Shown piece after piece: positions 6,699 to 63,715 of a DNA stretch of 64,000 bases. The first letter of the stretch is position 1. Each line of letters opens with the position of its first letter. The notes under the pieces are model-generated. The model was not told the origin of the DNA. It worked only from the letters and a program-made list of their open reading frames with translations, and did no database searches. This DNA comes from an uncultured Caldisericales bacterium (GTDB taxonomy: Bacteria > Caldisericota > Caldisericia > JAAYUI01): assembly GCA_964639885.1 (NCBI GenBank), contig CAZXEH010000002.1, forward strand, positions 88,425 through 152,424, in the 5' to 3' direction. The position numbers and the translations under genes are program-made.

Positions 6699-6707
6699 GA
6701 TCCCAAC

Positions 6708-8243: not shown

Positions 8244-8244
8244 T

Positions 8245-10362: not shown

Positions 10363-10369
10363 GATCCTC

Positions 10370-11636: not shown

Positions 11637-11648
11637 CTATCGCACCTC

Positions 11649-12698: not shown

Positions 12699-12702
12699 TT
12701 CC

Positions 12703-13809
12703 TCACCTGTCAGCCTCTCCCATCGTCGGTGCGATCGATGCCAGTGTGGCAACCACATCAGGTATCGATATTCCCTGGACGATGTGTGGGAGCGCCATGA
12801 GATTTGAGAATGATGGCGCCCTGAGTTTCATTCTGTAAGGTTTGTTGGAGCCGTCTGAAACAAGGTAAACTCCAAGCTCTCCAATCGGCGCCTCAACTCT
12901 TGTGTAGATTTCGCCTGCCGGAGGTTTGATAACTTTCGGAACCTTCGACTGAACCGGGCCAGAAGGAATGCGAGTCAGAATCTGTTCAATGATTCTGATC
13001 GACTGCTTCACTTCGTTGAATCTTACCATGAATCTCGAAAGCGAGTCACATCCCTGCTCGGTCACAACCTCAAAATCAAGCTGGTCGTATACCTCGTAAG
13101 GTTCATCCCGTCTCAAGTCCCTGTTTATGCCTGATCCCCTTAGCACAGGGCCAGTGCAACCGAGGTCGAGAGCAAGTGATGGTGTCAGCATTCCAATGCC
13201 CTTCGTTCTCGAAATGAAGATTTCATTGTCGCTCAGAAGGTTGGCATATTCTGGAATCCTATCCTTTAGATAATGAATAAAGCGATCAATTTTTGCCAGA
13301 TAGCCATCGGGGAGGTCGTACCTGACTCCGCCAAACCTGAAAAAGTTGAATGTCATTCTTGATCCGGTGGCTTCAGCGAGGAGTTCGACAAGATATTCAC
13401 GATCCCTCATGCAGTAGACCATTGGAGTCATCGATGCAAGATCAAGTCCCTGGGCGCCGGCGTTTACAAGGTGGGCTCCGATCCTGTTGAGTTCCATGAG
13501 CATGACCCTGATATAGGAAGCTCTCGGTGGAACCTCAATACCCATCAGCCTTTCGACAGCGGAAACGTAAGGCCACTCATTGAGAAGCCCTGAAAGATAA
13601 TCTAGTCTGTCAAAGTATGGAATCACCTGGTGATACAGGAGTTTTTCGGAAAGTTTTTCAATGCCCCTGTGAAGGTAGCCGAGAACCGGTCGGCAATGTG
13701 TGACAACTTCACCATCAAGCGTAATCTCAGCCCTGAAGACGCCGTGGGTTGCCGGATGCTGTGGGCCTATGTTGACTTTTATCTGATCAGTGCAAATAAA
13801 ATCCGACAT
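12703..13809 (-). CDS. nuoD: Complex I-like subunit D
   Basis: NIGPQHPATHGVFR, GYLHRGIEK, RLDY, GEADR; lacks NiFe CxxC motifs. Confidence 0.95.
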   Translation of the reverse strand: MSDFICTDQIKVNIGPQHPATHGVFRAEITLDGEVVTHCRPVLGYLHRGIEKLSEKLLYHQVIPYFDRLDYLSGLLNEWPYVSAVERLMGIEVPPRASYIRVMLMELNRIGAHLVNAGAQGLDLASMTPMVYCMRDREYLVELLAEATGSRMTFNFFRFGGVRYDLPDGYLAKIDRFIHYLKDRIPEYANLLSDNEIFISRTKGIGMLTPSLALDLGCTGPVLRGSGINRDLRRDEPYEVYDQLDFEVVTEQGCDSLSRFMVRFNEVKQSIRIIEQILTRIPSGPVQSKVPKVIKPPAGEIYTRVEAPIGELGVYLVSDGSNKPYRMKLRAPSFSNLMALPHIVQGISIPDVVATLASIAPTMGEADR

Positions 13810-13817
13810 CTGTCCTC

Positions 13818-14246
13818 CTAGTCCACATCCGTGAAGTCTTTGCGAAGCGGAAACTTGTCAAAGCCATCAGGTGTCAGAATTCTAATCATGTTTGGATGTC
13901 CTTCAAATTCGATTCCGAACATGTCATAAACCTCGCGTTCAAGCCAGTCAGCTCCAGGCCAGAAAGGTGTGAGTGACGGCACTCTGAGTGATTTTGGAGC
14001 GTCAGCATAAACCCACATTTCTTCTCCTGTTCCCCAGTTATCAAAGATGTAAACGAGCGTGAATCCAGTTTCCGTGCACTTTGCTGTTAACATGGTGAGG
14101 AAATTGAACCCGTTGCTGGAGAGACCGTTTGCTATGTCAATAATCGTTTCAGGATCAATCCTGATTTTCATTCCTTTTTCAGCGATTTCAAAACGTTCGA
14201 TCGTGATGCCTTTGCTGCCAAGCATTTCCTGGAGGTTTGTCGTCAT
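13818..14246 (-). CDS. nuoC: Complex I-like subunit C
   Basis: [18 protein letters not shown]...PLRKDF. Confidence 0.95.
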
Positions 14247-14752
14247 TTTCTGCCTCCAAGCTTCATCTTTTCAGCCATGATCTTTTCTTTGAGCTTCATG
14301 ACTCCGTACATCAAAGCCTCTGGTCTTGGTGGGCATCCTGGGACGTAAATGTCTACTGGAATAATCTTGTCCACGCCTTTGACCACTGCGTAACTGTCAA
14401 TGAATGGCCCGCCTGAGCAAGCACAGGCTCCCATTGCGATAACCCACTTTGGATTTGGGATCTGCTCATAAAGGAGTTTTGTTGGCTCAGCCATTTTCTT
14501 TGTGATTGTTCCAGCAACGATCATGACATCGCACTGCCTTGGCGTCGGCCTGAAGAAGCATCCGTGACGGTCAAAATCATATCTTGGCATCCACGCATGG
14601 ATCATTTCGAAGGCACAACAGGCGGTGGCGTATGTCAGAGGCCAAAGCGAACCTGCCCTGCCCCAGGCAACAAGCCATTCAAGTGGTGCAAGCATGATCG
14701 ACGATTTCTCATCCGGTTTGTAGACAACCGGCCCTTCCTTGCTCAATCCCAT
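14243..14752 (-). CDS. nuoB: Complex I-like subunit B
   Basis: Start re-set to ATG 14752; [30 protein letters not shown]. Confidence 0.96.
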
Positions 14753-15108
14753 TTCAACAGCCCCCTTCCCCAGGCGTAAAAGTATCCTACAAGAAGGATT
14801 CCGATAAACAGCAATGCCTCTCCAACTGCGTACCAGCCCAGTAGTTTTGCATGAACAGCCCACGGGTAAAGGAAGACGGCCTCAACGTCAAAAGCAACGA
14901 AAATAAGGGTAAAAATCAGGTATCTGACGTTGAACTTGATGTCGGCTGAACCTTCGGGCTTGATGCCGCACTCATAGGAAGTGACAGATTCTGGGCTGTC
15001 AATGCGTTTGGGACGCAGCAGCCAGGAAAGGAAATAGGCGAATAGACCAAAACCTATTCCAACGAGAACAAAAATGCCTACAAAGAGGTAGTACTTGAAG
15101 TAGGTCAA
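14743..15108 (-). CDS. nuoA: Complex I-like subunit A
   Basis: [26 protein letters not shown]; GGAGG SD before TTG. Confidence 0.95.
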
Positions 15109-17082: not shown

Positions 17083-19409
17083 CAGCTCACCCAGGCGAAT
17101 CCAGTGTGTTTTGTCATGTACTTTTCGATTCCTTCTTTAAGTCTTTCGTGACCGGGAGCGGTCAGCTCCGAATCGTCTGCAAGTATAGCCTCGGCCTCCG
17201 TTCTTGCCAAGGTCAGAAGCGGAAGGTTTGTCGGTGTCAGCAACGGCGCCACTTCCAGCGTCGGTGCTCCTGCCTGCTGTGTACCGCCAATGTCGCCAGG
17301 CCCTCTCAGCTTCAAATCCTCCTCAGCCACCTCAAGGCCGTTGTTTGTACGCTCCAGAATCATCAGGTTTTGTGAAGGCCTGTCGGTTAGAAGGAAGCAA
17401 TAGCTTTGGTCTTTGCCTCGCCCAACCCTTCCCCTAAGCTGGTGAAGCTGGGCAAGCCCGAATCTTTCGGCATTTTCAACGATCATCACGGTTGCATCCG
17501 GCACATCGATGCCAACCTCGATAACGGTTGTGGAAATGAGGACTTTAATCATTCCATCAGCAAAAGCCCTCATCACTTCGTCTTTTTCGGCAGGTTTCAT
17601 CCTTCCATGAAGGAGTCCACAAGGAACTTCCTTAAATCTTGTTGCCTTCAGCTCTTCAAAGTGTTCGACAGCTGATTTGGCTTCCAGTTTTTCCGATTCT
17701 TCAACCAGCGGACAGACCACGTAAGTCTTGTTGCCCTTCGAAATTTCTGAAAGAGCTCGCTTGTAAGCCGATGATTCTGAATTGATGCAAACTTTTGTGA
17801 TGATTGGGATTCTTCCCTCCGGCATCTCGTCAATTGCTGAAACGTCGAGGTCGCCGTAAAGCGTCATCGCAAGCGTTCTGGGAATAGGGGTAGCGCTCAT
17901 AACGAGAATGTGTGGGCTTGAGCCTTTCCTGGCCAGCCTTGCCCTTTGAAGAACGCCAAACCTGTGCTGCTCGTCAACAACGCAGAGTGCAAGTTTTGGA
18001 AACTCAATCCAGTCCTCAAGAACCGCGTGAGTTCCAATCACGCAAAACGGTTCACCAGTCGACAGAAGTTTGAATATTTCAGCTCTTTCAGCTTTTTTCG
18101 TTGAGCCTGAAAGGTACAAAACCTTGTCGCCAAAAAATTTCTTTGCATTCTTGAAGGTTTGTGTCGCCAAGACCTCGGTCGGGGCAATCCAGGCCGCTTG
18201 AAAACCTGCGTCCATGATCGCTTTCACCGCCGAAAAGCCAACGACAGTTTTTCCTGATCCGACATCTCCATGAAGCAAACGGTTCATCGGTCTGCTAGAT
18301 TCGAGGTCTTTTGCTATTTCAGCTCTTGACCTGTCCTGGGCATTTGTTGGTTTGAACGGAAGGTCTTCAAAGAATTCCCTTGAACTCTCCGTTGCGTTTG
18401 GAATTTTCCTGGCAGTTTGTTTTTTGAAAAGCGCCCTTTGTCTGAGCAATCCAGCTTCAAGCAGGAGCAGACTCTCCATGACCACACGTTTTCGCGAGAT
18501 TTCAACTGATTCTTCAGACGGCGGATGATGGATGGTGAAATAACTGTCAGTCAAAGACGGCAGTTCAAGCCTTTTTACAATTTCGTCGGGAATCCAGCCA
18601 GGATCAAGCTCAGGCATCCTTTCCAGCACGAACTTTATCGTTTGCTGGATAAGCCACTGCGGAATCGAAGCGGTTGCGGGATAGACCGGGATTATTCGTT
18701 GGGAACCGGGCTTATCGTCCAAATCAGGGTTTGTCATGTGTGCCCCACCGAAATCGCCAACTCTGCCGGAGATCAAGAATGTTTTACCAACAGCGAGTTT
18801 CTTTGCGATGTACGGTGCGTTGAACCAGGTCGCCATGATTTTTCCAGAATCATCGCCAAACAAAGCCTGTAAATATCTCTTGCCTGGTCTTGGTAACCTG
18901 ACATCTAAAACTTTTCCAAAAAAGGAAACATCGGCTCCGACCTTTATTTTGCTTATTTTCACAACCTTTGTCCGGTCAATGTAACGGTTTGGAAAATGCC
19001 TGAGCAGGTCAAAAACCGTTGAAAGCCCAAATTTTTCAAACTTTTCAGCTCTTGACGGCCCAACACCGGGAACCATTTTTATCGGTGTGGTCAACTCAAA
19101 TTTTTGCCTGTCTGGGCTTGGTTTTGCCAGGATTGATGTTTTCTTGGCAACCTCTTCGCCTTCAAGAAAGGCAACCAGTTTTTCAAGCAGCTGCTTTCTT
19201 TTCTCAGGTTCGTACCTGTCGTAATAGTTTATGTACTTTATAAAATAATTGATTACTGCAATGTTTTCCGGTTCGTGTTTGCCAATTTGTTCGAGTTTGC
19301 CGATTGCGAATTTGGCAAACCCTCCGCCAACAACCTTATCCAGGCAGCCCTTTTCAATCTCAACTCTTGCCGGTTCAAGGAGTGTTTTTCTGTCAGAAGG
19401 GGTCATCAC
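17082..19409 (-). CDS. recG: ATP-dependent DNA helicase RecG
   Basis: GDVGSGKT, DEQHRFG, MSATPIPRTLA, QLHQLRGRVGRG. Confidence 0.97.
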   Translation of the reverse strand: MMTPSDRKTLLEPARVEIEKGCLDKVVGGGFAKFAIGKLEQIGKHEPENIAVINYFIKYINYYDRYEPEKRKQLLEKLVAFLEGEEVAKKTSILAKPSPDRQKFELTTPIKMVPGVGPSRAEKFEKFGLSTVFDLLRHFPNRYIDRTKVVKISKIKVGADVSFFGKVLDVRLPRPGKRYLQALFGDDSGKIMATWFNAPYIAKKLAVGKTFLISGRVGDFGGAHMTNPDLDDKPGSQRIIPVYPATASIPQWLIQQTIKFVLERMPELDPGWIPDEIVKRLELPSLTDSYFTIHHPPSEESVEISRKRVVMESLLLLEAGLLRQRALFKKQTARKIPNATESSREFFEDLPFKPTNAQDRSRAEIAKDLESSRPMNRLLHGDVGSGKTVVGFSAVKAIMDAGFQAAWIAPTEVLATQTFKNAKKFFGDKVLYLSGSTKKAERAEIFKLLSTGEPFCVIGTHAVLEDWIEFPKLALCVVDEQHRFGVLQRARLARKGSSPHILVMSATPIPRTLAMTLYGDLDVSAIDEMPEGRIPIITKVCINSESSAYKRALSEISKGNKTYVVCPLVEESEKLEAKSAVEHFEELKATRFKEVPCGLLHGRMKPAEKDEVMRAFADGMIKVLISTTVIEVGIDVPDATVMIVENAERFGLAQLHQLRGRVGRGKDQSYCFLLTDRPSQNLMILERTNNGLEVAEEDLKLRGPGDIGGTQQAGAPTLEVAPLLTPTNLPLLTLARTEAEAILADDSELTAPGHERLKEGIEKYMTKHTGFAWVS

Positions 19410-20200
19410 TGCATGACAAGCCTGCAGACTAGGAAGAAGGCGATGCAGTAGACAGCAAATACGGTGAAATCGGTCTTTTTGACGATCTTGAAGAAAACTA
19501 TCAATGACAGGTAACCAATGACGGCTGCAACGATCATTCCGATGATTGACGGCATCCAGAAAACAGGCATCGAGTTTTTGACAGCCTTGAACAGGCTGTA
19601 GGCAAATGCTCCGCCAATGGCCGGAATTGCAATGTGGAAGGCAAACTTTGCCGATGCTTCCCTGTCGAAACCCATGATTCTTGCGCCAGTGATGGTTGCT
19701 CCTGATCTGGAAATGCCTGGCAATATTGCAATGGCTTGCATCACACCAACAACAAGTGCGTCAGTCCATGTGGCAGATTCAAGCTTTCTGACACCCTTAA
19801 CGTAAGTTGCAATGATAAGAAGGGCAGCGGTTCCAAGCAACATCCATGAAGCCATGACCGGATCGCCGAAAGCCGCTTCAATCCTGTCTGAAAAGAGAAA
19901 TTCAGCAATAACAGCAGGGATCACAGCAAGGATCAGCAGCCATGGATATACGGTCGTAAAAGGAAGAGGTTTTGCAAAAGGATTGGAAAATATTCCTTTG
20001 ATCATATTAACAAACTCAGGCCAGAAATAAATTATCAGAGCCAGAAGAGTTCCGAAATGAACAAACACGTCAAAAGTCATGGGCGGCTGTGCCCAATTGA
20101 ACAGTCGCGGCAAAATTACAAGATGCGCTGAAGATGAAACCGGAATAAATTCCGTTGCTCCCTGTACAAATCCGAGGATTGCTGCCTGAATTGGGTTCAT
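19406..20200 (-). CDS. uppP: Undecaprenyl-diphosphate phosphatase
   Basis: QGATEFIPVSSSAH, PGISRSGAT; start re-set to ATG 20200. Confidence 0.95.
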   Translation of the reverse strand: MNPIQAAILGFVQGATEFIPVSSSAHLVILPRLFNWAQPPMTFDVFVHFGTLLALIIYFWPEFVNMIKGIFSNPFAKPLPFTTVYPWLLILAVIPAVIAEFLFSDRIEAAFGDPVMASWMLLGTAALLIIATYVKGVRKLESATWTDALVVGVMQAIAILPGISRSGATITGARIMGFDREASAKFAFHIAIPAIGGAFAYSLFKAVKNSMPVFWMPSIIGMIVAAVIGYLSLIVFFKIVKKTDFTVFAVYCIAFFLVCRLVMQ

Positions 20201-20202
20201 TT

Positions 20203-20949
20203 TTAATGCTCCTTGAGGTAATTTCTGCAAAAAATGAGATCAGATGGTTTGTCAACGTCGACGCCAAGCTCCGGTAACGGGACGAACGGTGCCGAGACTG
20301 AAATTTTCAAAATTCCTTCAACTTTTTTCTGAAGCTGTGGGACTGTAGCTGATCCAAAAAGCAGCTTCAGGATGAAACCGAAGCCAAGCTGCATTGCCTG
20401 CTTCAGTGCCGATTTCCTGCGTCTCTGCACTTCAGCGACAACAGGCTCAACCTTCACATAAGCCTCACGTTTCAAGAGGAAGCAGTTTGAAACCTTGACC
20501 TTCCCCTCTCTGAGCTTTGCAAAAGTCCTCTTGGTTCCGGGGAATTTTGCGTCAGTGTCGGTTTTTGTCAGCAATGGCAGGATCAAATCAGCATTGTTTC
20601 CTTCAAGTCTTTTCATTAGTTCGATGTAGGTTTGCCTGGTCACAAGCGGGGTGTCCGACGTTGCAATCAACACCTTGTCTGACTTGGCAACTTCAAAAGC
20701 CAGATCGACGTTTGCTTTCAATGATCCGGCATCCGGCCTGTTTTCATCTACCAAATCCAGAATTTCCTTCGAATAGTTGCTTCCTATCAAAACAATGCGA
20801 TCGATCCCGGGGGCAGTTTTGAGAGCGTTTATCGTGTACCAGACGCAGGGTTTTCCGCCCAGCTCCAGCATACCCTTGTGAGGAACATTCTCGTTTGCAA
20901 ACCAGTCCTCAACTCCACCACCACCCAGGATCACCGCATCCATGTTCAC
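20203..20949 (-). CDS. Nucleotidyltransferase-family (MobA/NTP_transf-like) protein
   Basis: AVILGGG...KGMLELGGKP, ATSDTP, C-terminal DVDKPSD. Confidence 0.75.
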   Translation of the reverse strand: MNMDAVILGGGGVEDWFANENVPHKGMLELGGKPCVWYTINALKTAPGIDRIVLIGSNYSKEILDLVDENRPDAGSLKANVDLAFEVAKSDKVLIATSDTPLVTRQTYIELMKRLEGNNADLILPLLTKTDTDAKFPGTKRTFAKLREGKVKVSNCFLLKREAYVKVEPVVAEVQRRRKSALKQAMQLGFGFILKLLFGSATVPQLQKKVEGILKISVSAPFVPLPELGVDVDKPSDLIFCRNYLKEH

Positions 20950-22979
20950 CTCGCAGGAAATCTGATTGTTATTTTTTTTGTTGCACTATCGTAAGCAACT
21001 TCGGCACCCAGAGCGTTTGCCGTAAATCTGAGCGGAAGCATGGTTTTACCGCCAACAATTGCAGGATACAGTTTCTGCTTCGAATCGATCCACTGATCGG
21101 CACCGTTGATCTTCGCCTGTTTCTTTCCAATCCAAAGCTCAATGGTTTTCTTTTTGCCGTCTGGCGTGTTCTGGGTCAATGTCACTTTTTGTGTTGCAGC
21201 TTCCCAGCCGACTGTTGAGAAAAGAGCCTCCGCAACAGGACGGATTGGCATATATGTTGAACCGGCAAGGTCAGATGGAAGAGGGGGCGATGAAGCGGTT
21301 GGGGCTGAAGCAAGCGTTTGAGCTGAACTTCCGACATACATGGTCTTGTTGTCAAGCTGGAGCGAAATCTGGATGTATCTGAAGATTGTGATGGTTTTTT
21401 CAGTCGTGAGTCCGTCCAGTTCAGCAACGATTTTGAAGGTGTTATTGCCGGGGGCGATAGAAACAACCACCTTGAATTGACCTTTGGCATCAACTGATGC
21501 TGGTTTTCCCGTGACAGTTACAGTGGCACCAATTGTGGTGGATCCTTCAAAAGTGAGCGAATCTTTATCCGTTTCAGTCTGCTCTAGATTGATAGTTAGC
21601 GTCGGTGCTACCTTCGGCTTGTCCTTTTCATAGGTGAAAGAAACTGTAATCTGCGCTTCGCCACCGTTTGATTCGATGTTGATGAAACCAGATTTTGTCG
21701 ACGGTTCAATGCCTGAAACATCTGCTTTGACAGCAATTGTTTGCGATGATCCAGGTTCAACCGAGAATTCTTCTGGTGTCACCGAGATGAATGTCTCAGT
21801 GGTTGCCAGTTTTCCGGTCAGTGTCTCATTGCCTGAGTTTGTCAGAGCGAAGGTTTTTGTTGCACTTTCCTTGATCGTTCCGAATTCAATCGCTTTAGTG
21901 TCAACTGTAAGCAAAGGTGTTTTGATTGTCTCGGCAGTGAAGGCAAATGTCAGGTTGTCGCTGATTGGATGTACATCCTTTGAGAGAACACCCTTCAAGC
22001 CACCAAGCAGATAGATGACATAGTCGCCATCCTTGAGGCCACCAGTCGGCTCAATTGATACAACATTGTTGTTTGTCTTTGCTGTAAAGTCGACGGTCTC
22101 ACCCGATGAAGTCGTCAGGAGAATCGAGTTTGTTCCAACGGTTGATTTGTCGATGGCTGTATCAAATTCGAGATTGAAGGATTTTCCTGACGGAACTGGC
22201 TTTGAGAAGTCAGTTGAAACGTGTGGGGCAACATAATCCCAAACACTGTACCCATAAACCTCGAGTGTATCGGCATCCCATATGACAAAAACAAAGCCTG
22301 TGTTCTCGGAAACCCATTCTTCGTTCATTTCAAGTGTGCGTTTGATGCTCTTTCTGGTCTCGTTGCCAAAACGGAGAGAGCCGCCCTGAGCTGAAGGATC
22401 AATTAGCCTTATAACATGATTGAAAACATGCGTGCCTTCCTCAAATCCACTTTCGAATGCGAAAAAGGCATATTTGAGCTTGTCGTTTGCGAGGTTGTCA
22501 AGCCTTTCGACCGAACCAACAAAGTCAATCTTTTTCTTGTCCGAGCCTTCGGCAAATCTGCCATCAAGCTGTGCCGAGAACTGAACTTTTTTCTTCCATT
22601 CCTTTGTTATTGCGGCATCAACTTCTGCATCTGACATGCCTGTCCTGACAACGCTTCCGCCATTGAACAGCGTTGTAGGATAGCTCTTTCTGTCATACAT
22701 CTGGGCTCTTTTGCCTGATTCAACATTGTAAAGGAAGTCTATCGGGTTGCTGTGTTCCCTGAGATAAAAAATTGAGCTGGCGCCGTTTTCTGATTGAAGT
22801 TTTTCAAACCGATTCACGATCGGGTGACACTTCGTTCAGTTCGGCTCCACAAAAATTTCACACAAAGCCCTGCGTTTTGGCGCAAAGTCAGCCTTGGAGA
22901 GAGCCACAGCCGTGTGCACCATTGGAAGCACCTGAGCGACCAGGAGCATGATCAGTAGTGCAACAAACGTTCTCTTCAT
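20946..22979 (-). CDS. Secreted selenoprotein (677 aa): signal peptide, UxxC thioredoxin/Omp28-like domain, Ig-like domains, copper-amine-oxidase-N-terminal (stalk) domain
   Basis: Track ORFs 22836..23066 and 20946..22817 are in the same frame, separated only by TGA (22836-22838) plus 6 sense codons: LCEIFVEPN-U-TKCHP. AGGAGG SD and TGATG overlap at 22979; later YPTTLFNG; stalk motifs YMPIRPVAEAL and MLPLRFTANALG. Confidence 0.85.
22796..22835 (-). promoter_or_regulatory. Candidate bacterial SECIS element
   Basis: 3' of the UGA: lower stem GAAGT/ACTTC, upper stem CCGAT/ATCGG, G-containing loop CGTGA starting 17 nt after the UGA. Confidence 0.65.
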
Positions 22980-24106
22980 CAAACGACCTCCTTGTTGGTC
23001 AACGTGTATTTGATTTTTATCCTGCCCCCCAATAAAGTCAATATTTCGTAAGAAGAAGTGTTGCAAATATTTGCCAGATCAGAAACGGTGATTGATTCCC
23101 TTCCATCCTCGCCAATCAAAATAACCCTGTCCCCGACTTCTGTTGTCGGTATGTCAGTCAGGTCGATCATGAACTGATCCATGCAGATTCTGCCAAGAAT
23201 CGGTGCTTTTTTGCCACCGACCAGCACAAAACCGCCGTCTTTAAGGTTCCAGCGCCATCCGTCAGCGTAACCCACAGGAACAGTGCCAATAACTTTTACA
23301 GTGTCAGCCTTAAAGGTGCAGCCATAACCAACACAATCTCCAGGCTTCAGAATTTTCATGTCACAGACAAGCGATGTCCAGGACAGGACCGGCAGCAGAT
23401 TAACCTCATTTTCGCAAGGCGGGACACCATAAAGCATCAGCCCCGGCCTCACTGCATCGAAATGATACTCCCTGTGGTTAACCGTTGCCGCTGAATTTGC
23501 AGCGTGGATGATTGACGGATGAACTCCGAGTTCTTTTGCCTGCCCAACAATCTTGATGAATGACTCGCCCTGGAATCTGGTATATTCAGGATTTGTGTCG
23601 GCTGAGGCAAAATGGGTGAACAGTCCATCGATTTTTATCCTTGGGAGTTTGAGAACGCTTGTAATGAAATGGATTGCATCCTTTACAGCTATTCCGGCCC
23701 AGCCCATTCCGGTGTCTATCTTGATGTGAACATTGACAGGCTTGGAACTGAGACGGTTGAGCTCAACTGCAAGATCATAATCAAATATGGTTGGAGTCAG
23801 GTTGTAGTGAAGGATGTCGGCTGCATATGCAGCGTGGGTGTAGCCAAGAATCAGAATCGGAGCAACAACGCCTGCCTGTCTCAACTGTAACGCCTCTTCC
23901 GGCATCTGGACAGCAAGCCATTCAACCCCGTTTTGAATAAGGCACTGGGCAACTGCAGGAGCTCCGTGACCGTAAGCATTGGCCTTGACCACAGCGATAA
24001 TTTTCTTGCCTGAAGCGCATCTCCTCACTGTTCCGAGGTTTGAAACCAGCCGGTCAAGGTTGATTTCTGCAGTCGATGGAAGGATTTTTTCCGGTGCAAG
24101 GCTCAT
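22979..24106 (-). CDS. alr: Alanine racemase
   Basis: AVVKANAYGHG, HIKIDTGMG, VRPGLMLYG, GRICMDQ. Confidence 0.97.
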   Translation of the reverse strand: MSLAPEKILPSTAEINLDRLVSNLGTVRRCASGKKIIAVVKANAYGHGAPAVAQCLIQNGVEWLAVQMPEEALQLRQAGVVAPILILGYTHAAYAADILHYNLTPTIFDYDLAVELNRLSSKPVNVHIKIDTGMGWAGIAVKDAIHFITSVLKLPRIKIDGLFTHFASADTNPEYTRFQGESFIKIVGQAKELGVHPSIIHAANSAATVNHREYHFDAVRPGLMLYGVPPCENEVNLLPVLSWTSLVCDMKILKPGDCVGYGCTFKADTVKVIGTVPVGYADGWRWNLKDGGFVLVGGKKAPILGRICMDQFMIDLTDIPTTEVGDRVILIGEDGRESITVSDLANICNTSSYEILTLLGGRIKIKYTLTNKEVV

Positions 24107-26816: not shown

Positions 26817-28185
26817 TTTGCCTCCTGACCAGTATTACAGGGGTCTGGTCGTCTTCGTTCCCTGCAGGATTGTCGGCCATCCACCCTTCGAGTGCGGCGG
26901 AATCTATTCCGTCAGTCTTTCCAACGACCCACGCGATCCCGAGATCGTTTGCGTCAACAATTGCCGTCTCTAGTCCGGTTTCAGCCTTTATCTGGCTTGC
27001 CAGCACGTCCGAATCGTATGGCCCGGGTATGACATAGTAGTCATAGGGAGCCATTGACGCAGGCATGTCATCGATCATTGCAACTTCAGGGCCAGCAACC
27101 ATGTAGAACCAGCCCTTTTTGCCGATCAGTTTTCCGAATGCACCACAAAACGCAGCAAAGAGAATCCTGAATGTGCTGGCGATCTCAATTGCCACCTGGA
27201 ACGAAAGCGGATTGGCAAGCGGCGACGTGGTTGCAAATGAATTTCTTGAGGAAGCGGTTACGAATCTGGCAAGGAATTTTGCCAGTCTTGAAGGTATGAT
27301 TGTTTCAGCCTGATAAATTCTTCCCTGCGTTATTGAGGCGACCGCCGATGCAAAAGTGACAATATCGCCGGGTTTCGCAATGTCTTTGATAGCCTCAGAA
27401 ATGACTTTTCCAGCAACATCTTCTTCAGTTATGATTTTTGTCTTCACCGGTATTTTGATTGTACCAGGTTTTGACGGGAGAGGCGGGGCAAGCTTCACTG
27501 ACTTCGCCGTTTCCGCAGACACTCTCTGGATTTCCTTGAGACATTTTGCGCCTTTGCGTCTTCTTGTACCTTCAAGCCAGATGTCCAGAGCTTTTCCACG
27601 GTTTCCACTCAGCTCATAACACTTGCCAAGCAAAACAAAATCGCTCTCGTAGAAGTTCGATGGTTCAAGCTTTTTGAACTCCTCGAAATACTTTATCGCC
27701 TCATCGTATTTTTTCAGGTCGAAAAGGATGTGCGATATTCGCTTGAGAATGTAGCGGTAGATCGAAAGGATGTCGGGTCTCAGGTTTTCCTTGCCAAGTT
27801 TTGTTCCTTCAAGATAGATCGATAGTGCTCTCTCAAGGTCTTCTGCAAAATAATAGAAGATATCGCCCATCGAAATAATATGCCAGTGTTGTTCGGGATT
27901 TGCCTTGTATGCCTTGCTGACAATTTTGTATGCTTCATCATACTTGCCGTCAAGTGAGAGTATCCTGGTAAGTTGACGAACCGCCGTAGGATACTTGCCA
28001 TATCTGCCGTCAATAACGCCTTCAAGCATCACTCTCGCATCAACGTTGTTCCCGAGTTTGCACAGTGCGTAGGCCAGAATGCCTGCGTTTTTATCGCCTA
28101 TTGACCTGAACGATTTCTTGCCAAGAAGTTCAACAATTTTTCTGAAGTCCTGCTCAGTTAGAGCTCGTTTCAATGCTGGGTTCAC
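26809..28185 (-). CDS. TPR-repeat protein fused to an F420-0:gamma-glutamyl-ligase-like domain
   Basis: N-terminal helical TPR-like repeats; C-terminal IPVKTKII, ASITQGR, AMIDD, IVDANDLG. Confidence 0.65.
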   Translation of the reverse strand: MNPALKRALTEQDFRKIVELLGKKSFRSIGDKNAGILAYALCKLGNNVDARVMLEGVIDGRYGKYPTAVRQLTRILSLDGKYDEAYKIVSKAYKANPEQHWHIISMGDIFYYFAEDLERALSIYLEGTKLGKENLRPDILSIYRYILKRISHILFDLKKYDEAIKYFEEFKKLEPSNFYESDFVLLGKCYELSGNRGKALDIWLEGTRRRKGAKCLKEIQRVSAETAKSVKLAPPLPSKPGTIKIPVKTKIITEEDVAGKVISEAIKDIAKPGDIVTFASAVASITQGRIYQAETIIPSRLAKFLARFVTASSRNSFATTSPLANPLSFQVAIEIASTFRILFAAFCGAFGKLIGKKGWFYMVAGPEVAMIDDMPASMAPYDYYVIPGPYDSDVLASQIKAETGLETAIVDANDLGIAWVVGKTDGIDSAALEGWMADNPAGNEDDQTPVILVRRQNV

Positions 28186-28723
28186 TTATTTCCTCTTCCA
28201 TGCCAGATTCGTTGATTATTTCAAACAGCCTTATTAGAACACTTTTAACGGATTCCCTATCCCTCGAAACGCAGGGCAGAACCTCTATCGAATCATCGAG
28301 ACTGAGAGCCTGTCTTATCTGTTCCGGTCTGAGTGCATTGGGGTCATCCTGTTTGTTTGCAACCACCACGCACGGTATTTTCATCTTGTGAAGGAAGAAT
28401 GCAAGATAGCGTTTGCCAAGGATGACCGACTTGTAGTCAGACGCATCGACCATGACAATCAATCCAAGAGCGCCGACAGAGAGTACATCCCACATGTAGG
28501 AAAACCTCTCCTGGCCTGGAGTCCCGAAGATGTACAAAACCAACTCTTCGTTGATCGTCAGTCTTCCAAAATCGAGAGCAACCGTTGTCTGTGTCTTTAC
28601 CACACGGCTCTCGTCAGTGACAGCTTTTTCTGTTGACACAACCGGAATCTCCGAAATTGTCTGTATCAGCGAAGTCTTGCCGGATGCAAAAGGCCCGGTG
28701 ACAAGAATCTTGACTCTTCTCAT
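28154..28723 (-). CDS. MglA/CvnD-like small GTPase
   Basis: GPFASGKTS, TTVALDFG, GTPGQERF, NKQD. Confidence 0.9.
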   Translation of the reverse strand: MRRVKILVTGPFASGKTSLIQTISEIPVVSTEKAVTDESRVVKTQTTVALDFGRLTINEELVLYIFGTPGQERFSYMWDVLSVGALGLIVMVDASDYKSVILGKRYLAFFLHKMKIPCVVVANKQDDPNALRPEQIRQALSLDDSIEVLPCVSRDRESVKSVLIRLFEIINESGMEEEISEPSIETSSN

Positions 28724-29352
28724 AATTTTCTCAGATAGTCAATGATAACGTTGATGATCGACTTTTTTTGCTTTTCAGGTTCGATCTTCTTTTCAACCTT
28801 CTGCTTGACCGACATCCTCTTGACCACTCCAACCTGCAAAAGCGAGTAGAAGACTCTCATAGTGTCAAATTCAGGCAAACCCAGCTCTTTGGAGATGTCC
28901 CCAAGGCTCCTGTTTCCATCGGTGAGTGCGATGACCCGCCACTGGTTCTTGTCAAACTCAAGACTGAACATCGTGAATTCAGGAGAGAGCGCATAAATTA
29001 TGTTGTTTGAAGGGATTTCCCTTCTCAAGGTTTCAAAGAGTTTCACCCTGCCTGAAGCCTCAAGCAGGAGCTGATCCATGGCGGTTACAATGTTTGCCTC
29101 CGGGGAGGTTTCATCGCCAACAAACCTGAAACTGCCGTCCTCAGCTTCGCAGATGAAGAAGAAGGCCTCCTTGCCACGAAGATCGTCAGCATAAGAGTTT
29201 GTGATAGTGCCATTCACAAAATAGACAGCGCAGTCGTACCTTTTTCCACCCTGTTCGATAACAAGAACGAGTTTTCCAGTCTTTTTGGAGATCCAGATGA
29301 ATTGACAAATCTCAACAACCGAAAAATCCTTTACATTTCCCGCAAGTTCCAT
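28720..29352 (-). CDS. DUF4388 (PatA_N-like) protein with C-terminal winged helix
   Basis: LAGNVKDFSVVEICQFI..KKTGKL..YFVNG..G.F.F; ALTDGNRSLGDISKELG. Confidence 0.8.
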   Translation of the reverse strand: MELAGNVKDFSVVEICQFIWISKKTGKLVLVIEQGGKRYDCAVYFVNGTITNSYADDLRGKEAFFFICEAEDGSFRFVGDETSPEANIVTAMDQLLLEASGRVKLFETLRREIPSNNIIYALSPEFTMFSLEFDKNQWRVIALTDGNRSLGDISKELGLPEFDTMRVFYSLLQVGVVKRMSVKQKVEKKIEPEKQKKSIINVIIDYLRKL

Positions 29353-61277: not shown

Positions 61278-63128
61278 ATGGAAGCAAGAAGCTTTATTGT
61301 CGGCACTGCCGGACACGTTGACCATGGAAAATCAACCCTTGTAACAAAGATTTCCGGGATTGATCCTGACAGGCTGCCAGAGGAAAAAGAGAGGCAGATG
61401 ACCATCGAGCTGGGCTTCGCTCCGCTCAAGCTGCCTTCTGGCCGAAAATGCGGCATTGTCGATGTCCCAGGCCATGAAAAACTGGTCAGGCAGATGCTCA
61501 TGGGCGCCCAGGGATTTGACCTCGTCATGTTCACGGTTGCCTGTGATGAGGGGCCAAAAGTTCAGACAGAAGAGCACCTGGCTATTCTCAACCAACTCAA
61601 TCTCAAGCTTGGAATCGTCGTTTTGACAAAGTGCGACCTGCCACACGACGACGCCGAGTTACAATCAAAAGTTGACAGGCTAGTAGTCAACTCATTTCTG
61701 GAAAATGCGCCAAGAATCAAGGTTTCCGCTTTCACTGGCGAGGGCATTGACAAGCTGCTGTTGAAAATCGATGAAATGCTCGATCATTCCGAACCAAGAC
61801 CACTGAACATGCCCGCCTTTTACCCGATTGACAGGGCATTTGCTGTAAAAGGATTCGGAGTTGTGACCACCGGAACGCTCTGGCAAGGGTCGATCGCCAA
61901 AGGTTCGGAACTCGAAATCTTCCCAACACGAAAACTCGGAAAAGTGAGAAGAATTGAACTCTTCGATGCCGAAACCGACACAGGACTGGCAGGGTCAAGA
62001 CTTGCAATCAATTTTCCAAACATGGAAAAGGCTGACCTTGACCATGGATACATAGCAGCAACCCCGAAAAAATTTGATGCCACCTCAGTGATTGATGCAA
62101 AAGTTCAGTTGGTCAAGAATGTCAAACGCAAGACGAGACTGAAATTCCACTACGCAACGATCGTTCAGGAAGTCGATTACATTGACCATGGAGACGGCTT
62201 CGCGAGAATCCATCTTGAATCACCGCTTCCAATGACCCGGGGGGCAAGGTTCATCCTCAGGTCAATCGCTCCGGCGGATACGGTTGGCGGCGGAAACGTG
62301 CTTGATGTCGAACCGACACAAAAACCTCAGCACCAGGAAACCATCGACAGGCTCAAACAAATCGATGCCTGCACAGATGAGGACTACCTCAAGGTCAGGA
62401 TCACCGAAACCGGGCAAAACGGCTTTGAAATTGGCAAGCTGAGGTTTCTGGTCAACTGGCCGGATGACCGGTATGAAAAATTTCTGAAGGATGCAGCGAT
62501 CATCAAAATCGGTTACAGAATGGTTTCAGCTTCGGTTCTGAAATCAATCACAGACAAACTCGCGGCAGACATCACCAGATTCTTCAAAGACAACTCCGAC
62601 AGAACCACGCTTTCCAAGGCTGAGGCCAGATCAAGGCTTGCACCTGAAATGCCGGAAGACATCTTCTCGTCGGTAATTGAAAACGCTGTCAAAGAGCCAC
62701 TAAAAAAAGTTGGAAATGACATTGTTTCAGGCTCATCAGTCACACAAAACCCAATTGAACAGGCTGTCGTTGCAATGCTCAAGCACGAAATCCTTCAACC
62801 ACCGTCACTTACAGAGATTCGCCAAAGCTCGAGATTCGCAAACAGCAGGCGAGAGCTTGAATCAGTCCTGTCAAAACTGATTTCAGAAAAGCAGTTGTTG
62901 CGCGGCGACCAGGATTTGTACTTCCACAAGGATGCAGTCGAAGTTGCATTTCAGATCGTGAAAAAATACATCGCCAAAGAGGGTTCGATCAAGCTCGCAC
63001 AGTTCAGGGACGAGATAAAAGCATCCAGAAAATATGCACAGGCGATGCTTGAGTTGCTGGATTTGCTTGGCTTAACCCGCAGAAACGGTGATGTGAGACA
63101 GCTAGGGTCGAAGGGAATGGACAAATAA
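61278..63128 (+). CDS. selB: Selenocysteine-specific elongation factor
   Basis: GTAGHVDHGKST, DVPGHEK, C-terminal winged helices with SRKYA..LLE..D; upstream of tRNA-Sec. Confidence 0.96.
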   Translation: MEARSFIVGTAGHVDHGKSTLVTKISGIDPDRLPEEKERQMTIELGFAPLKLPSGRKCGIVDVPGHEKLVRQMLMGAQGFDLVMFTVACDEGPKVQTEEHLAILNQLNLKLGIVVLTKCDLPHDDAELQSKVDRLVVNSFLENAPRIKVSAFTGEGIDKLLLKIDEMLDHSEPRPLNMPAFYPIDRAFAVKGFGVVTTGTLWQGSIAKGSELEIFPTRKLGKVRRIELFDAETDTGLAGSRLAINFPNMEKADLDHGYIAATPKKFDATSVIDAKVQLVKNVKRKTRLKFHYATIVQEVDYIDHGDGFARIHLESPLPMTRGARFILRSIAPADTVGGGNVLDVEPTQKPQHQETIDRLKQIDACTDEDYLKVRITETGQNGFEIGKLRFLVNWPDDRYEKFLKDAAIIKIGYRMVSASVLKSITDKLAADITRFFKDNSDRTTLSKAEARSRLAPEMPEDIFSSVIENAVKEPLKKVGNDIVSGSSVTQNPIEQAVVAMLKHEILQPPSLTEIRQSSRFANSRRELESVLSKLISEKQLLRGDQDLYFHKDAVEVAFQIVKKYIAKEGSIKLAQFRDEIKASRKYAQAMLELLDLLGLTRRNGDVRQLGSKGMDK

Positions 63129-63148: not shown

Positions 63149-63640
63149 GGGGTGGTTGGCTCCCTTTGTTGTGAGCTGCTCCTGGAAATTTATCCATACC
63201 TTTAGACAATCTTTCAAAAAAAGAATAAGAGAAGATTTTAGGATTATTTTTTCTTGAATGACAATATAAAAATCAAGATTTATAGTACATTTTTCAGCTT
63301 GTGAAGGGGGTGGTTGGGCTCCCTTTGTTGTGTGCCGCTCCTGATCTTTCCATATTTTTGGAATCCTTCAAAAATAAGAATTAAAGTAAATTGAGGGGTA
63401 TACCTTTCATTATCGGCAGATGAAAGAGTCAATGCTTTGTAGTACATTTTTCAGCTCGTGACGGGGGTGGTTGGGCTCCATTTGTTGTGTGCTGCTCCTG
63501 GATTTATCCATATCTTAAAGCAAACCATAATAAACTATGAATAATAGTAGACTGTAAGGTTAACTCTTCTTTGATCGTCACTTGACAAATCGAGGCTTTG
63601 TAGTACATTTTTCAGCTCGTGACGGGGGTGGTTGGGCTCT
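63149..63640 (+). repeat. Degenerate tandem repeat (~157-161 bp period); three copies of a tRNA-Sec 5'-half-like core before the real selC
   Basis: GGGGTGGTTGG(G)CTC starts at 63149, 63307, 63464, 63625; TAGTACATTTTTCAGCT at 63283, 63440, 63601; TTTGTTGTG..C.GCTCCTG in copies 1-3. Confidence 0.9.
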
Positions 63641-63715
63641 GGTGGGCCTCCTGGACTTCAAATCCAGTGTGTGGTGAACTCCACGGGTAGGTTCGATTCC
63701 TATGCGCCCCCGCCA
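63624..63715 (+). tRNA. selC: tRNA-Sec (TCA)
   Basis: 6-bp D-stem GGGCTC/GGGCCT with TGGT loop, CTGGA-CTTCAAA-TCCAG, long variable arm, GTTCGATTCC, G discriminator, CCA. Confidence 0.96.

What the first reader, a model, noticed from the sequence alone, without database searches (positions are those of the whole stretch)
20946..22979. Hidden secreted selenoprotein: UxxC redox domain on a multi-Ig, stalk-anchored scaffold
Seen: the track splits this gene in two, but both parts share a frame. ATG 22979 (AGGAGG SD) gives a signal peptide, then RRALCEIFVEPN-TGA-TKCHP, and the frame stays open to 20946. UGA sits at the first Cys position of a thioredoxin CxxC motif, and a cis-Pro-loop-like YPT follows. 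A SECIS-like hairpin starts right after the UGA (loop 17 nt downstream). selB and tRNA-Sec(TCA) are in this window. Established: bacterial Sec insertion needs UGA, a 3' SECIS, SelB and selC, and UxxC is a typical selenoprotein motif. Inference: an extracytoplasmic Sec oxidoreductase (Omp28/Trx-like domain, Big_5-like, BACON-like and further Ig domains, stalk domain) displayed on the envelope. Pipelines would miss it or call it a pseudogene. I cannot confirm whether this family is already described.
Basis: partly seen in the sequence, partly recalled or inferred. Interest (0 to 1): 0.88.

Follow-up and report, generated by a model that had tools for sequence, protein, structure and literature searches.

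The report
Secreted selenocysteine thioredoxin-fold surface protein
This is a real but mis-split gene for a large secreted protein whose thioredoxin-like active site uses selenocysteine (UGA-encoded) instead of cysteine; it adds a selenoprotein family, found in Caldisericales-type anaerobes, that is absent from a 2026 catalogue and that gene callers cut in two.

Summary
One 677-codon frame (22979-20946, minus strand) has an AGGAGG ribosome-binding site and a signal peptide. It carries a single in-frame TGA at codon 48 (22838-22836) in the motif EPN-U-TKC-H.

The TGA is kept in all eight distinct homologues I recovered (34-85% identity). More distant relatives, the Omp28-related/HBP35-like proteins, have Cys there (WCxxC).

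A hairpin 12 nt after the UGA has an invariant CGU in its loop. Three to four of its pairs show compensatory changes, and it meets the published bacterial SECIS model. selB (above its curated cutoff) and tRNA-Sec are in the window. UGA is otherwise the commonest stop, and RF2 is present.

An AlphaFold model (pLDDT 85.7) gives a thioredoxin fold plus a beta-sandwich. Its best PDB match is P. gingivalis HBP35, whose Cys48/Cys51 are needed for its thioredoxin activity. Three Ig-like domains and a Cu_amine_oxidN1 domain follow.

The family is absent from a 2026 catalogue of 119 prokaryotic selenoprotein families and from NCBIfam. I did not find selA or selD in the window. Selenium incorporation, substrate and surface anchoring are inferred, not shown.

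Verdict: a genuine new member of the known class of UxxC thioredoxin-fold selenoproteins.

The parts
22987..22992 (-). Shine-Dalgarno AGGAGG, 7 nt upstream of the ATG
   Evidence: Read directly from the sequence.
20946..22979 (-). Full selenoprotein CDS: 677 codons including Sec48, plus the TGA stop at 20946-20948. The ATG overlaps the alr stop (TGATG), and the stop overlaps the GTG of the next gene.
   Evidence: Translation. Homologues are colinear over the full length.
22902..22979 (-). Signal peptide, residues 1-26 (AVA|LS), with no lipobox
   Evidence: Read from the sequence. Present in all homologues. Judged by eye, not by a predictor.
22836..22838 (-). UGA codon 48, read as selenocysteine
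   Evidence: TGA conserved in 8 of 8 clade members and aligned to Cys in Omp28-related homologues.
22827..22838 (-). U-T-K-C redox motif (UxxC), just before the first helix of the thioredoxin fold
   Evidence: Alignments A1, A3 and A4. Model secondary structure.
22796..22833 (-). SECIS-like stem-loop. Upper stem CCGAU/AUCGG at 22823-22819 and 22813-22809, apical loop CGUGA at 22818-22814, plus a lower stem. The GTG that ORF finders take as the start of the 623-aa ORF lies in this loop.
   Evidence: Folds. Covariation. Published bSECIS constraints.
22581..22865 (-). Thioredoxin-fold subdomain (residues 39-133), including the invariant P101-T102 (YPT codons at 22682-22674) just before the third strand
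   Evidence: AF2 model, pLDDT 85.7. Profile hits to the thioredoxins 1nho and 1fo5.
22233..22565 (-). Beta-sandwich subdomain (residues 139-249), Omp28/HBP35-like
   Evidence: Foldseek hits to 5y1a and 2r2c. Pfam Omp28 over residues 95-238, E = 3.7e-6, below the gathering cutoff.
21942..22214 (-). Ig-like domain 1 (Big_5, residues 256-346)
   Evidence: Pfam, 23.8 bits against a cutoff of 23.6. Big_5 is also called in homologues.
21636..21917 (-). Ig-like domain 2 (HYDIN/VesB/Cep192-type, residues 355-448)
   Evidence: Pfam PF22544 (2e-7) and PF22076 (2.1e-9).
21378..21605 (-). Ig-like domain 3 (Glucodextran_B-like, residues 459-534)
   Evidence: Pfam, E = 2.8e-5, below the cutoff.
20964..21266 (-). 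C-terminal Cu_amine_oxidN1 ('stalk') domain, residues 572-672, after a Pro-rich linker
   Evidence: Pfam PF07833, E = 3.4e-22, 78.9 bits against a cutoff of 24.2.
61278..63128 (+). selB, the Sec-specific elongation factor, with its C-terminal winged-helix SECIS-binding domain
   Evidence: Pfam. TIGR00475, 315.8 bits against a cutoff of 242.25.
63624..63715 (+). tRNA-Sec (anticodon TCA)
   Evidence: ARAGORN. Rfam RF01852, 74.5 bits against 47.
22979..24106 (-). alr (alanine racemase), directly upstream, with its stop overlapping the selenoprotein start
   Evidence: Pfam. The same arrangement is seen in L002 and L003.
19406..20949 (-). Downstream genes in the same direction: a MobA-like nucleotidyltransferase (20203-20949) and uppP/BacA (19406-20230)
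   Evidence: Pfam and NCBIfam. Synteny is conserved in L002; only the nucleotidyltransferase position is visible in L003, whose contig ends there.

Best explanation
One gene (22979-20946, minus strand) encodes a 677-residue secreted selenoprotein.

How it is made (inferred from the anatomy):
- Translation starts at the ATG, which is coupled to the end of alr.
- At codon 48 the UGA is recoded as selenocysteine.
- A SECIS hairpin begins 12 nt downstream and has the apical loop CGUGA. It would recruit SelB carrying Sec-tRNA(Sec). Both selB and the tRNA-Sec gene are about 40 kb away in the same window.

What the product is:
- After signal-peptide cleavage the mature protein starts with a thioredoxin-fold domain.
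- Its active site is U48-T-K-C51, just before the first helix, with the invariant Pro101-Thr102 loop just before the third strand.
- This domain is fused to the beta-sandwich typical of HBP35/Omp28-related proteins.
- Three Ig-like spacer domains, a Pro-rich linker and a C-terminal Cu_amine_oxidN1 domain follow.

Most likely function (inferred): an extracytoplasmic thiol/selenol-disulfide oxidoreductase.
- Sec48 would be the attacking nucleophile and Cys51 the resolving residue.
- The Ig-like spacers would hold the catalytic domain away from the cell. The C-terminal domain would attach it to the envelope or make it a dimer.
- The gene sits in a conserved cluster alr - X - nucleotidyltransferase - uppP, which hints at a link with envelope biogenesis.

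Shown here: the conserved UGA/Cys pairing, the covarying SECIS, the Sec machinery genes, the fold, and the domain architecture.
Inferred: actual selenium insertion, redox activity and its direction, the substrate, and surface attachment.
For: **Single reading frame**
- The frame is continuous across the TGA.
- The 47 upstream codons evolve like coding sequence. Substitutions by codon position are 6:3:14 for window vs L001 and 0:0:5 for L006 vs L007, mostly synonymous.

**Conserved UGA**
- The TGA is present in all eight distinct clade members from independent assemblies: window, L001, L002, L003/L009, L004, L005/L008, L006 and L007. They are 34-85% identical.
- Between distant homologues, the UGA flank is the best conserved DNA stretch of the gene.

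**Sec/Cys pair**
- An exhaustive HMMER search found distant homologues with WCxxC aligned on U..C.
- Of the 120 listed proteins of the 224 profile hits, 102 carry a WCxxC-type motif. Those named by a source are called 'Omp28-related outer membrane protein'.

**SECIS**
- The hairpin lies at a fixed distance from the UGA. Loop bases C-G-U are invariant.
- 3-4 of 5 pairs show compensatory changes. 91% of cells are paired, against at most 40% when the partner is slid. 0 of 500 shuffles reach the observed covariation score.
- These changes alter amino acids (IVN, AVS, TVG, AVR), so the structure is kept at the expense of the protein sequence.
- It meets the published bSECIS model: 5-nt loop with G in position 2, 17 nt from UGA to loop, and MFE of -8.8 to -15.8 kcal/mol.

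**Machinery and genetic code**
- selB passes its equivalog cutoff and tRNA-Sec passes the Rfam threshold.
- TGA is the commonest ordinary stop (27 of 46 long ORFs).
- prfB carries its canonical CTT TGA C frameshift site.

**Fold**
- The AF2 model has pLDDT 85.7 and pTM 0.84, with thioredoxin-fold order b-a-b-a-b-b-a followed by a beta-sandwich.
- The Foldseek top hit is HBP35, 5y1a (E = 4.5e-12, TMq 0.77). The Omp28 domain 2r2c comes next.
- The sequence profile hits the thioredoxins 1nho and 1fo5 at about 1e-6, with their CxxC on U..C.
- HBP35 reduces insulin, and this needs C48 and C51 (PMC2907840).

**Context**
- Conserved synteny and overlapping start and stop codons.
Against: - selA and selD were not found among the window ORFs, nor in the stretch just beyond selB. 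The rest of the genome could not be searched.
- There is no experimental evidence of selenium incorporation.
- Rfam has no SECIS family matching this element.
- The upper stem is short (4-5 bp), and its outermost pair is unpaired in 3 of 7 sequences.
- The Omp28 Pfam and NCBIfam scores are below their cutoffs.
- The CxxC motif is not universal in the wider Omp28-related family. Some members have TxxC, SxxC or no Cys at all, so redox catalysis is not the only possible role of the fold.
- No CcdA/DsbD-type electron donor was seen in the window.
- The C-terminal PF07833 domain is reported as a dimerisation module as well as a cell-wall-associated domain.
Confidence: 0.85

Rival explanations
1. 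Pseudogene or assembly/sequencing error. On this view the TGA is a nonsense mutation or a miscalled base in a former Cys codon, and no full-length product is made.
For: Gene callers split the locus, and one public record calls the remnant a 'hypothetical protein'.
Against: - The same TGA sits at the same codon in eight distinct sequences from unrelated samples and assemblers, down to 34% identity.
- Both sides of it are under purifying selection.
- There are no other disruptions in 677 codons.
Confidence: 0.02
2. Two separate genes: a 47-aa secreted peptide that ends at the UGA, and an independently initiated protein of about 620 aa.
For: A GTG (window) or an ATG (L002, L003, L004, L006) lies 6-8 codons after the TGA, and gene callers use it.
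Against: - No start codon is conserved. L005 has no nearby call.
- The window's GTG lies inside the hairpin loop and has no Shine-Dalgarno sequence.
- The downstream product would lack a signal peptide. It would also lack strand 1 and the first active-site residue of the thioredoxin fold, which are encoded upstream of the TGA.
- Cys homologues are single polypeptides.
Confidence: 0.04
3. The UGA is read through by something other than Sec. This could be Trp, Gly or Cys reassignment, or near-cognate suppression, and would give a W/G/CxxC protein.
For: Read-through alone would also keep the frame open. selA and selD were not seen.
Against: - TGA terminates most genes in the window, and RF2 with its UGA-dependent frameshift is present.
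- A dedicated SelB and tRNA-Sec are encoded.
- The structure downstream of the UGA covaries as a SECIS should.
- The position is the catalytic Cys of a CxxC motif.
Confidence: 0.03
4. It is a genuine selenoprotein, but the U/C pair serves ligand binding rather than disulfide exchange. The ligand could be haem (as with HBP35 hemin binding), a metal, or a sulfur or selenium species. The local motif UxxCH also resembles a CxxCH haem-attachment site.
For: - HBP35 binds hemin and supports growth under hemin limitation (PMC2907840).
- Most clade members have His after the Cys, and Pfam gave a faint magnetochrome hit at residues 47-56.
- Some Omp28-related proteins lack the first Cys.
Against: - The His is absent in L005 (UTFCPP) and in nearly all Omp28-related proteins (CxYCPG).
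- The motif sits in a canonical thioredoxin active-site position next to the invariant Pro-Thr loop.
- HBP35 hemin binding is also a property of the 27-kDa truncated form.
- HBP35's CxxC is needed for its reductase activity.
Confidence: 0.1

Closest known systems
HBP35 (35-kDa hemin-binding protein) of Porphyromonas gingivalis, PDB 5y1a
   Same: - Best structural match to the N-terminal module across both subdomains, the thioredoxin fold and the beta-sandwich (E = 4.5e-12, TMq 0.77).
- Both are secreted proteins with a CxxC-type motif at residues 48 and 51.
- HBP35's Cys48 and Cys51 are needed for its insulin-reducing activity.
- Both have an N-terminal redox module followed by a C-terminal surface-sorting or attachment part.
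   Different: - Only 12% identity in the structural alignment.
- HBP35 has Cys rather than Sec, and uses a T9SS C-terminal domain rather than Ig-like domains plus Cu_amine_oxidN1.
- It comes from Bacteroidota, not Caldisericales.
- Hemin binding was not tested here.
Omp28-related outer membrane proteins (Pfam PF11551, NCBIfam NF033782) of Bacteroidota, Cloacimonadota and Marinimicrobia
   Same: - Detectable sequence homology over the whole 220-residue module.
- Shared invariant residues: the Glu in strand 1, the second Cys, Asp, Arg, Pro-Thr, and Gly.
- These are the Cys-form counterparts that make up the Sec/Cys pair.
   Different: - The window protein scores below both curated cutoffs: 27.3 against 34.9 bits, and 17.3 against 150 bits.
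- It has no lipoprotein signal and no T9SS tail.
- Its motif is EPN-U-xKC-H instead of GTGTWCxYCPGA.
Known Sec-containing thioredoxin-fold families with UxxC (Trx, Grx, DsbA-like, thiol:disulfide interchange protein, TlpA-like, redoxin), as listed in PMC13188914
   Same: - Same kind of protein: Sec replaces the first, nucleophilic Cys of a CxxC in a thioredoxin fold.
- The SECIS lies in the coding sequence directly after the UGA.
   Different: - None of those Pfam families appears among the hits listed for this protein at E up to 1 (HMMER drops most matches above about 0.1).
- The Omp28/HBP35 lineage is not among the 119 catalogued families.
- At 677 aa with six domains, this protein is a large multi-domain one.
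Consensus bacterial SECIS model, as summarised in PMC13188914
   Same: - 5-nt apical loop with G then U at positions 2 and 3.
- 4-5 bp upper stem plus a lower stem.
- 17 nt from the UGA to the loop.
- MFE at or below -7.5 kcal/mol.
   Different: - No sequence similarity to any Rfam SECIS family.
- The upper stem is at the short end of the allowed range.

Membership tests
Bacterial selenoprotein gene | In-frame UGA conserved among orthologues | tested here: met
   TGA at the same codon in 8 of 8 distinct clade members at 34-85% identity.
Bacterial selenoprotein gene | Homologues carry Cys at the aligned position (Sec/Cys pair) | tested here: met
   U48 aligns with the first Cys of WCxxC in Omp28-related proteins.
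Bacterial selenoprotein gene | SECIS stem-loop directly 3' of the UGA that fits the bSECIS model | tested here: met
   Loop CGUGA, 17 nt from the UGA, MFE -8.8 to -15.8 kcal/mol. 3-4 pairs covary, and 0 of 500 shuffles reach the observed score.
Bacterial selenoprotein gene | SelB and tRNA-Sec in the same genome | tested here: met
   selB passes TIGR00475 (315.8 bits against a cutoff of 242). tRNA-Sec scores 74.5 bits in Rfam.
Bacterial selenoprotein gene | SelA and SelD in the same genome | tested here: inconclusive
   Neither was found among the window ORFs scanned with Pfam, nor in L010 beyond selB.
Bacterial selenoprotein gene | Selenium actually incorporated into the polypeptide | not testable with these tools
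   Needs 75Se labelling or mass spectrometry.
Thioredoxin-fold thiol:disulfide oxidoreductase | Thioredoxin fold (b-a-b-a-b-b-a) with the CxxC just before the first helix | tested here: met
   AF2 model with pLDDT 85.7. Strand 11-17, U21/C24, helix 24-38, and so on. Profile hits to 1nho and 1fo5.
Thioredoxin-fold thiol:disulfide oxidoreductase | Conserved Pro loop just before strand 3 (cis-Pro in thioredoxins) | tested here: met
   P101-T102 is invariant in 48 aligned sequences and lies directly before strand 3 of the model. The cis geometry itself was not examined.
Thioredoxin-fold thiol:disulfide oxidoreductase | Disulfide-exchange activity | not testable with these tools
   Known only by analogy with HBP35.
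Omp28 family (PF11551 / NF033782) | Score above the curated family cutoff | tested here: not met
   PF11551: 27.3 bits against 34.9. NF033782: 17.3 bits against 150.
Omp28 family (PF11551 / NF033782) | Same two-subdomain fold as solved members | tested here: met
   5y1a at TMq 0.77 over 241 columns. 2r2c at TMt 0.72-0.77.
Omp28 family (PF11551 / NF033782) | Lipoprotein signal and/or T9SS C-terminal sorting domain | tested here: not met
   No lipobox Cys in residues 1-30. The C-terminus is PF07833, not PF18962.
Catalogued Sec-containing extracytoplasmic Trx-like families (PF13098, PF01323, PF08534, PF00578, cd02966) | Match to the family model | tested here: not met
   None of the Pfam models is listed at E up to 1. 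Only Thioredoxin_3 appears, at E = 0.13. No NCBIfam '(seleno)protein' model covers the N-terminal domain. cd02966 is a CDD model and was not searched.

The most novel reading that the evidence does not exclude
This would be the founding member of a selenoprotein family of the HBP35/Omp28 lineage that has not been described, and the first reported for Caldisericales-type bacteria. On this reading the protein is a cell-surface-displayed selenoenzyme. Its exposed selenolate would act on extracellular or envelope substrates, for example polysulfide, thiosulfate-derived sulfur species or disulfides of envelope proteins. It would be held away from the cell by Ig-like spacers and co-expressed with envelope-biogenesis genes (alr, uppP). 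It might also be one of the proteins that keep the costly Sec machinery in this lineage.
Probability: 0.2. Interest if true: 0.7.

Novelty: new member of a known kind. Interest (0 to 1): 0.55.

Why it matters
- **Annotation.** Every public copy I looked at is truncated to the part after the UGA, and is unnamed or labelled 'hypothetical protein'. The signal peptide and the catalytic residue are therefore lost from the databases.
- **Catalogue.** Correcting this adds a family to the prokaryotic selenoproteome. A 2026 review lists 119 families and none is of this lineage.
- **Taxonomy.** It shows Sec use in a poorly studied group. The nearest relative is a Caldisericales MAG at 91% nucleotide identity.
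- **Comparative biochemistry.** It provides a natural Sec/Cys pair within the HBP35/Omp28 fold. This could be used to ask what selenium contributes to an extracytoplasmic redox domain.
- **Conceptual weight.** This is moderate. UxxC thioredoxin-fold selenoproteins with an in-frame SECIS are a well-known class.

Tried and rejected
- **Word-indexed protein search.** A search with the N-terminal domain found nothing at E <= 0.001. The exhaustive HMMER search was needed instead.
- **Rfam.** Neither the gathering threshold nor a permissive local scan gave a SECIS family. The only local match was a chance flavivirus frameshift element.
- I used the window sequence with X at position 48, plus database homologues.
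- **selB look-up.** The look-up from the TTG start was not on record. The ATG start worked, but the extra 3.7 kb beyond the window held trk genes, not selA or selD.
- **Other recoded genes.** A scan of the window for other ORF pairs split by a TGA gave no second convincing candidate.
- **Sec forms elsewhere in the Omp28-related family.** Eighteen of the 120 listed profile hits lack the standard motif. They turned out to be TxxC, SxxC or Cys-less variants. One, P0119, is a Cys form with an upstream frameshift. None has a TGA.
- **CxxCH haem-attachment idea.** Rejected, because the His is not conserved in L005 or in the wider family.
- **Genetic code 4/25.** Rejected.
- **C-terminal domain against PDB sequences.** No hit.
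- **Literature.** Searches for Omp28 with selenoprotein, and for Caldiserica/Caldisericum with selenoprotein or selenocysteine, found nothing relevant.


Full report
**1. The observation**

On the minus strand an ATG at 22979 is preceded by AGGAGG at 22992-22987. The frame reads MKRTFVALLIMLLVAQVLPMVHTAVALSKADFAPKRRALCEIFVEPN-TGA-TKCHPIVNRFEKL... and stays open for 677 codons, to the TGA stop at 20948-20946. The internal TGA is codon 48 (22838-22836).

Mechanical ORF listing splits the locus into a 76-aa ORF that ends at this TGA and a 623-aa ORF that starts at GTG 22817.

The ATG overlaps the stop of alanine racemase (TGATG). The stop overlaps the GTG of a MobA-like nucleotidyltransferase, which is followed by uppP and recG.

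**2. Is the UGA conserved?**

- A scan of one genome per GTDB species found one close relative. This is an uncultured Caldisericales MAG (L001), 84% identical in the query domain. It is 91% identical in DNA and colinear over 12.7 kb. It has TGA at the same codon: FCEIFVEPN*TKCHP.
- An exhaustive HMMER search used the part after the UGA against 1.84 billion representatives. It gave only 12 hits.
- The five closest hits (P0001-P0005) all begin just after the Sec position (MNRFEKL, MDTLEKE, MDQLEKE, MDKLETD), which is the signature of truncated gene calls.
- I fetched their contigs. Each has a 47-48-aa ORF with a signal peptide that ends at an in-frame TGA directly upstream:
  - L002: FCEIFVEPN*IKCHT
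  - L003: YCEIFTEPH*PKCHT
  - L004: FCEIFVEPN*LKCHT
  - L005: LVEMFLEPE*TFCPP

.
- A metagenome scan added L006 and L007 (FCEIFVEPN*TKCHT).

This makes eight distinct sequences at 34-85% identity, from different samples and assemblers, all with TGA.

The 47 codons before the TGA change mostly at third positions. Counts by codon position are 6:3:14 for window vs L001 and 0:0:5 for L006 vs L007. They are therefore translated in this frame. The UGA flank is the best conserved DNA segment between distant homologues.

**3. The Sec/Cys pair**

The more distant hits (P0006-P0008, P0010-P0012) are full-length proteins with TWCxxCP or ATWCGWCH exactly where the clade has U..C.

A profile search returned 224 proteins. 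Those that carry a name from a source are mostly called 'Omp28-related outer membrane protein'. Most have PF11551, and many also have a T9SS tail. Of the 120 listed, 102 carry a WCxxC-type motif, typically GTGTWCxYCPGA. The other 18 are TxxC, SxxC or Cys-less variants. One is a Cys form broken by a frameshift. None has a TGA.

Among what I examined, the Sec form is confined to the Caldisericales-type clade.

**4. The SECIS**

- Twelve nt after the UGA lies the stem-loop CCGAU-CGUGA-AUCGG (22823-22809), on top of a lower stem.
- In an alignment of seven homologues the loop bases C-G-U are invariant.
- The stem changes by compensatory substitutions: CCGAU/AUCGG, ACUGC/GCAGA, ACUGC/GCAGU and CCUAC/GUAGG. 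Three to four of the five pairs show double changes.
- 91% of cells are paired, against 23-40% when the partner column is slid. No shuffle out of 500 reaches the observed covariation score.
- These changes alter the encoded amino acids (IVN, AVS, TVG, AVR). The RNA structure is being preserved at the cost of the protein sequence.
- The element meets the published consensus for bacterial SECIS: loop of 3-9 nt, stem of at least 4 bp, G in the first two loop positions followed by G or U, 16-37 nt from the UGA, and MFE at or below -7.5 kcal/mol (PMC13188914). Here the loop is 5 nt, G-U sit at loop positions 2-3, the distance is 17 nt, and the MFE is -8.8 to -15.8 kcal/mol.
- Rfam has no matching family.
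- The GTG that ORF finders take as the start of the 623-aa ORF is the GUG of this loop.

**5. Decoding machinery and genetic code**

- selB (61278-63128) has the SelB beta-barrel and C-terminal winged-helix domains. It passes the TIGR00475 cutoff.
- tRNA-Sec lies at 63624-63715.
- TGA ends 27 of 46 long ORFs. RF2 is encoded with its classical CTT TGA C frameshift site. UGA is therefore an ordinary stop in this organism, which rules out a reassigned code.
- selA and selD are not in the window, nor just beyond it. This remains the main open point on the genomic side.

**6. What the protein is**

Pfam gives the following:

| Residues | Domain | Support |
|---|---|---|
| 572-672 | Cu_amine_oxidN1 | E = 3.4e-22 |
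| 256-346 | Ig-like, Big_5 | at threshold |
| 355-448 | Ig-like, HYDIN/Cep192-type | E = 2e-7 to 2e-9 |
| 459-534 | Ig-like, Glucodextran_B-like | sub-threshold |
| 95-238 | Omp28 | sub-threshold |
| 41-87 | Thioredoxin_3 | faint, E = 0.13 |

An AlphaFold model of residues 29-254 used an alignment of 47 Cys homologues. It has pLDDT 85.7 and pTM 0.84. It shows a thioredoxin fold (b-a-b-a-b-b-a) with U and C just before the first helix, and the invariant Pro101-Thr102 just before strand 3. A beta-sandwich follows.

The best PDB match by far is HBP35 of P. gingivalis (5y1a, E = 4.5e-12, TMq 0.77). The Omp28 domain 2r2c comes next, and classical thioredoxins rank lower. A sequence profile also hits the archaeal thioredoxins 1nho and 1fo5 at about 1e-6, with their CxxC on U..C.

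HBP35 is a secreted surface protein. Its insulin-reducing activity is lost when Cys48 and Cys51 are mutated. By coincidence these are the same residue numbers as U48 and C51 here (PMC2907840).

**7. Mechanism proposed**

Shown: one gene, UGA recoding signals, the Sec machinery genes, a signal peptide, a thioredoxin fold with UxxC, and the domain order.

Inferred: the mature protein is an extracytoplasmic selenol/thiol-disulfide oxidoreductase. Sec48 would be the nucleophile and Cys51 the resolving residue.

The layout is a catalytic module, then Ig-like spacers, then a C-terminal domain. It parallels the Cys homologues, which have a catalytic module, then PKD/Ig-like domains, then a T9SS tail. 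This suggests display at the cell surface.

PF07833 occurs on surface-exposed, cell-wall-associated proteins of Desulfotomaculum reducens (PMC4137172). It also mediates dimerisation of a Paenibacillus superoxide dismutase (PMC10432803). 'Anchor' is therefore only one possibility.

The conserved cluster pmbA/tldD - alr - X - nucleotidyltransferase - uppP suggests a link with envelope biogenesis. The substrate and the electron source are unknown.

**8. Rivals**

- Pseudogene or sequencing error: excluded by conservation.
- Two separate genes: excluded because there is no conserved start codon, the fold would be broken, and the signal peptide would be lost.
- Non-Sec read-through: unlikely, given that UGA is a normal stop, the SECIS covaries, and selB and tRNA-Sec are present.
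- A ligand-binding role (haem or metal, UxxCH) rather than redox catalysis: cannot be excluded, but disfavoured because the His is not conserved.

**9. Comparison with what is known**

By kind, this is a UxxC thioredoxin-fold selenoprotein with an in-frame SECIS, which is a well-known class. By family, it is a distant relative of Omp28-related/HBP35 proteins. It falls below their curated cutoffs and lacks their lipoprotein and T9SS features.

A 2026 review that catalogues 119 prokaryotic selenoprotein families lists no Omp28, HBP35 or PF11551 family. NCBIfam release 20 has no selenoprotein model covering the domain. Full-text searches found nothing. The public copies I looked at are truncated, and are unnamed or called 'hypothetical protein'.

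I rate it a new member of a known kind. It is a solid, correctable annotation gap and a useful natural Sec/Cys pair, but not a conceptual surprise. The interest score is 0.55.

Noticed in passing
window 63149-63639 (+), between selB and tRNA-Sec: There are about three decayed tandem copies (unit about 157-161 nt, 77-80% identical) of the segment that precedes tRNA-Sec, including its first bases. Each copy carries 'ttgtagtacatttttcagctcgtgac' followed by GGGGGTGGTTGGGCTCC...GCTCCTGGAT.TATCC, which resembles the acceptor/D-arm and the 5' half of the anticodon stem. Only the last copy is a complete tRNA-Sec, and Rfam scores none of the others. This looks like a repeated promoter plus 5' fragment of selC. 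The origin is unexplained.
   Followed up: partly
window 60146-61237 (+): prfB (RF2) carries the classical programmed +1 frameshift site CTT TGA C (60215-60221), preceded by AGGAG. Mechanical ORF listing shows only the +1 part, from 60176. The ATG at 60146 overlaps the TAA of the upstream 369-aa ORF, which has no Pfam or NCBIfam hit.
   Followed up: partly
window 22814-22818 (-): The GTG that ORF finders use as the start of the truncated 623-aa product is the conserved GUG of the SECIS apical loop. In four homologues the called ATG lies right after the 3' arm of the hairpin. This produces a systematic, recognisable mis-annotation pattern for this family.
   Followed up: yes
P0061-P0126 (Omp28-related proteins): A subset of Omp28-related proteins has lost the first Cys of the CxxC (GTGTWTSYCVGA, GTGTFTPYCVGA) or both (GTGTWVKYGPGA). 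The fold is therefore not always redox-active in the wider family.
   Followed up: partly
window 28154-29352 (-) and 38258-40923 (+): The window holds a small Ras/Arf-like GTPase (ATP_bind_1/Arf/Ras hits) next to a DUF4388 protein. Further on there is a 747-aa protein with an N-terminal Roadblock/LC7 domain. Together these resemble MglA/MglB-like polarity modules.
   Followed up: no
window 5226-14863 (-) and 271-5000 (-): A complex-I-like operon is present (20-kDa, 30-kDa and 49-kDa subunits, NuoH and three antiporter-like subunits). No NuoE, NuoF or NuoG homologue was seen among the ORFs scanned. An F-type ATP synthase operon is adjacent, and its a-subunit ORF is unusually long (428 aa).
   Followed up: no
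window 50271-53301 (-): A hybrid-cluster protein (Prismane family, 598 aa) sits with a 4Fe-4S ferredoxin-domain partner and an Rrf2-family regulator. This is a typical nitrosative or oxidative stress module of anaerobes.
   Followed up: no
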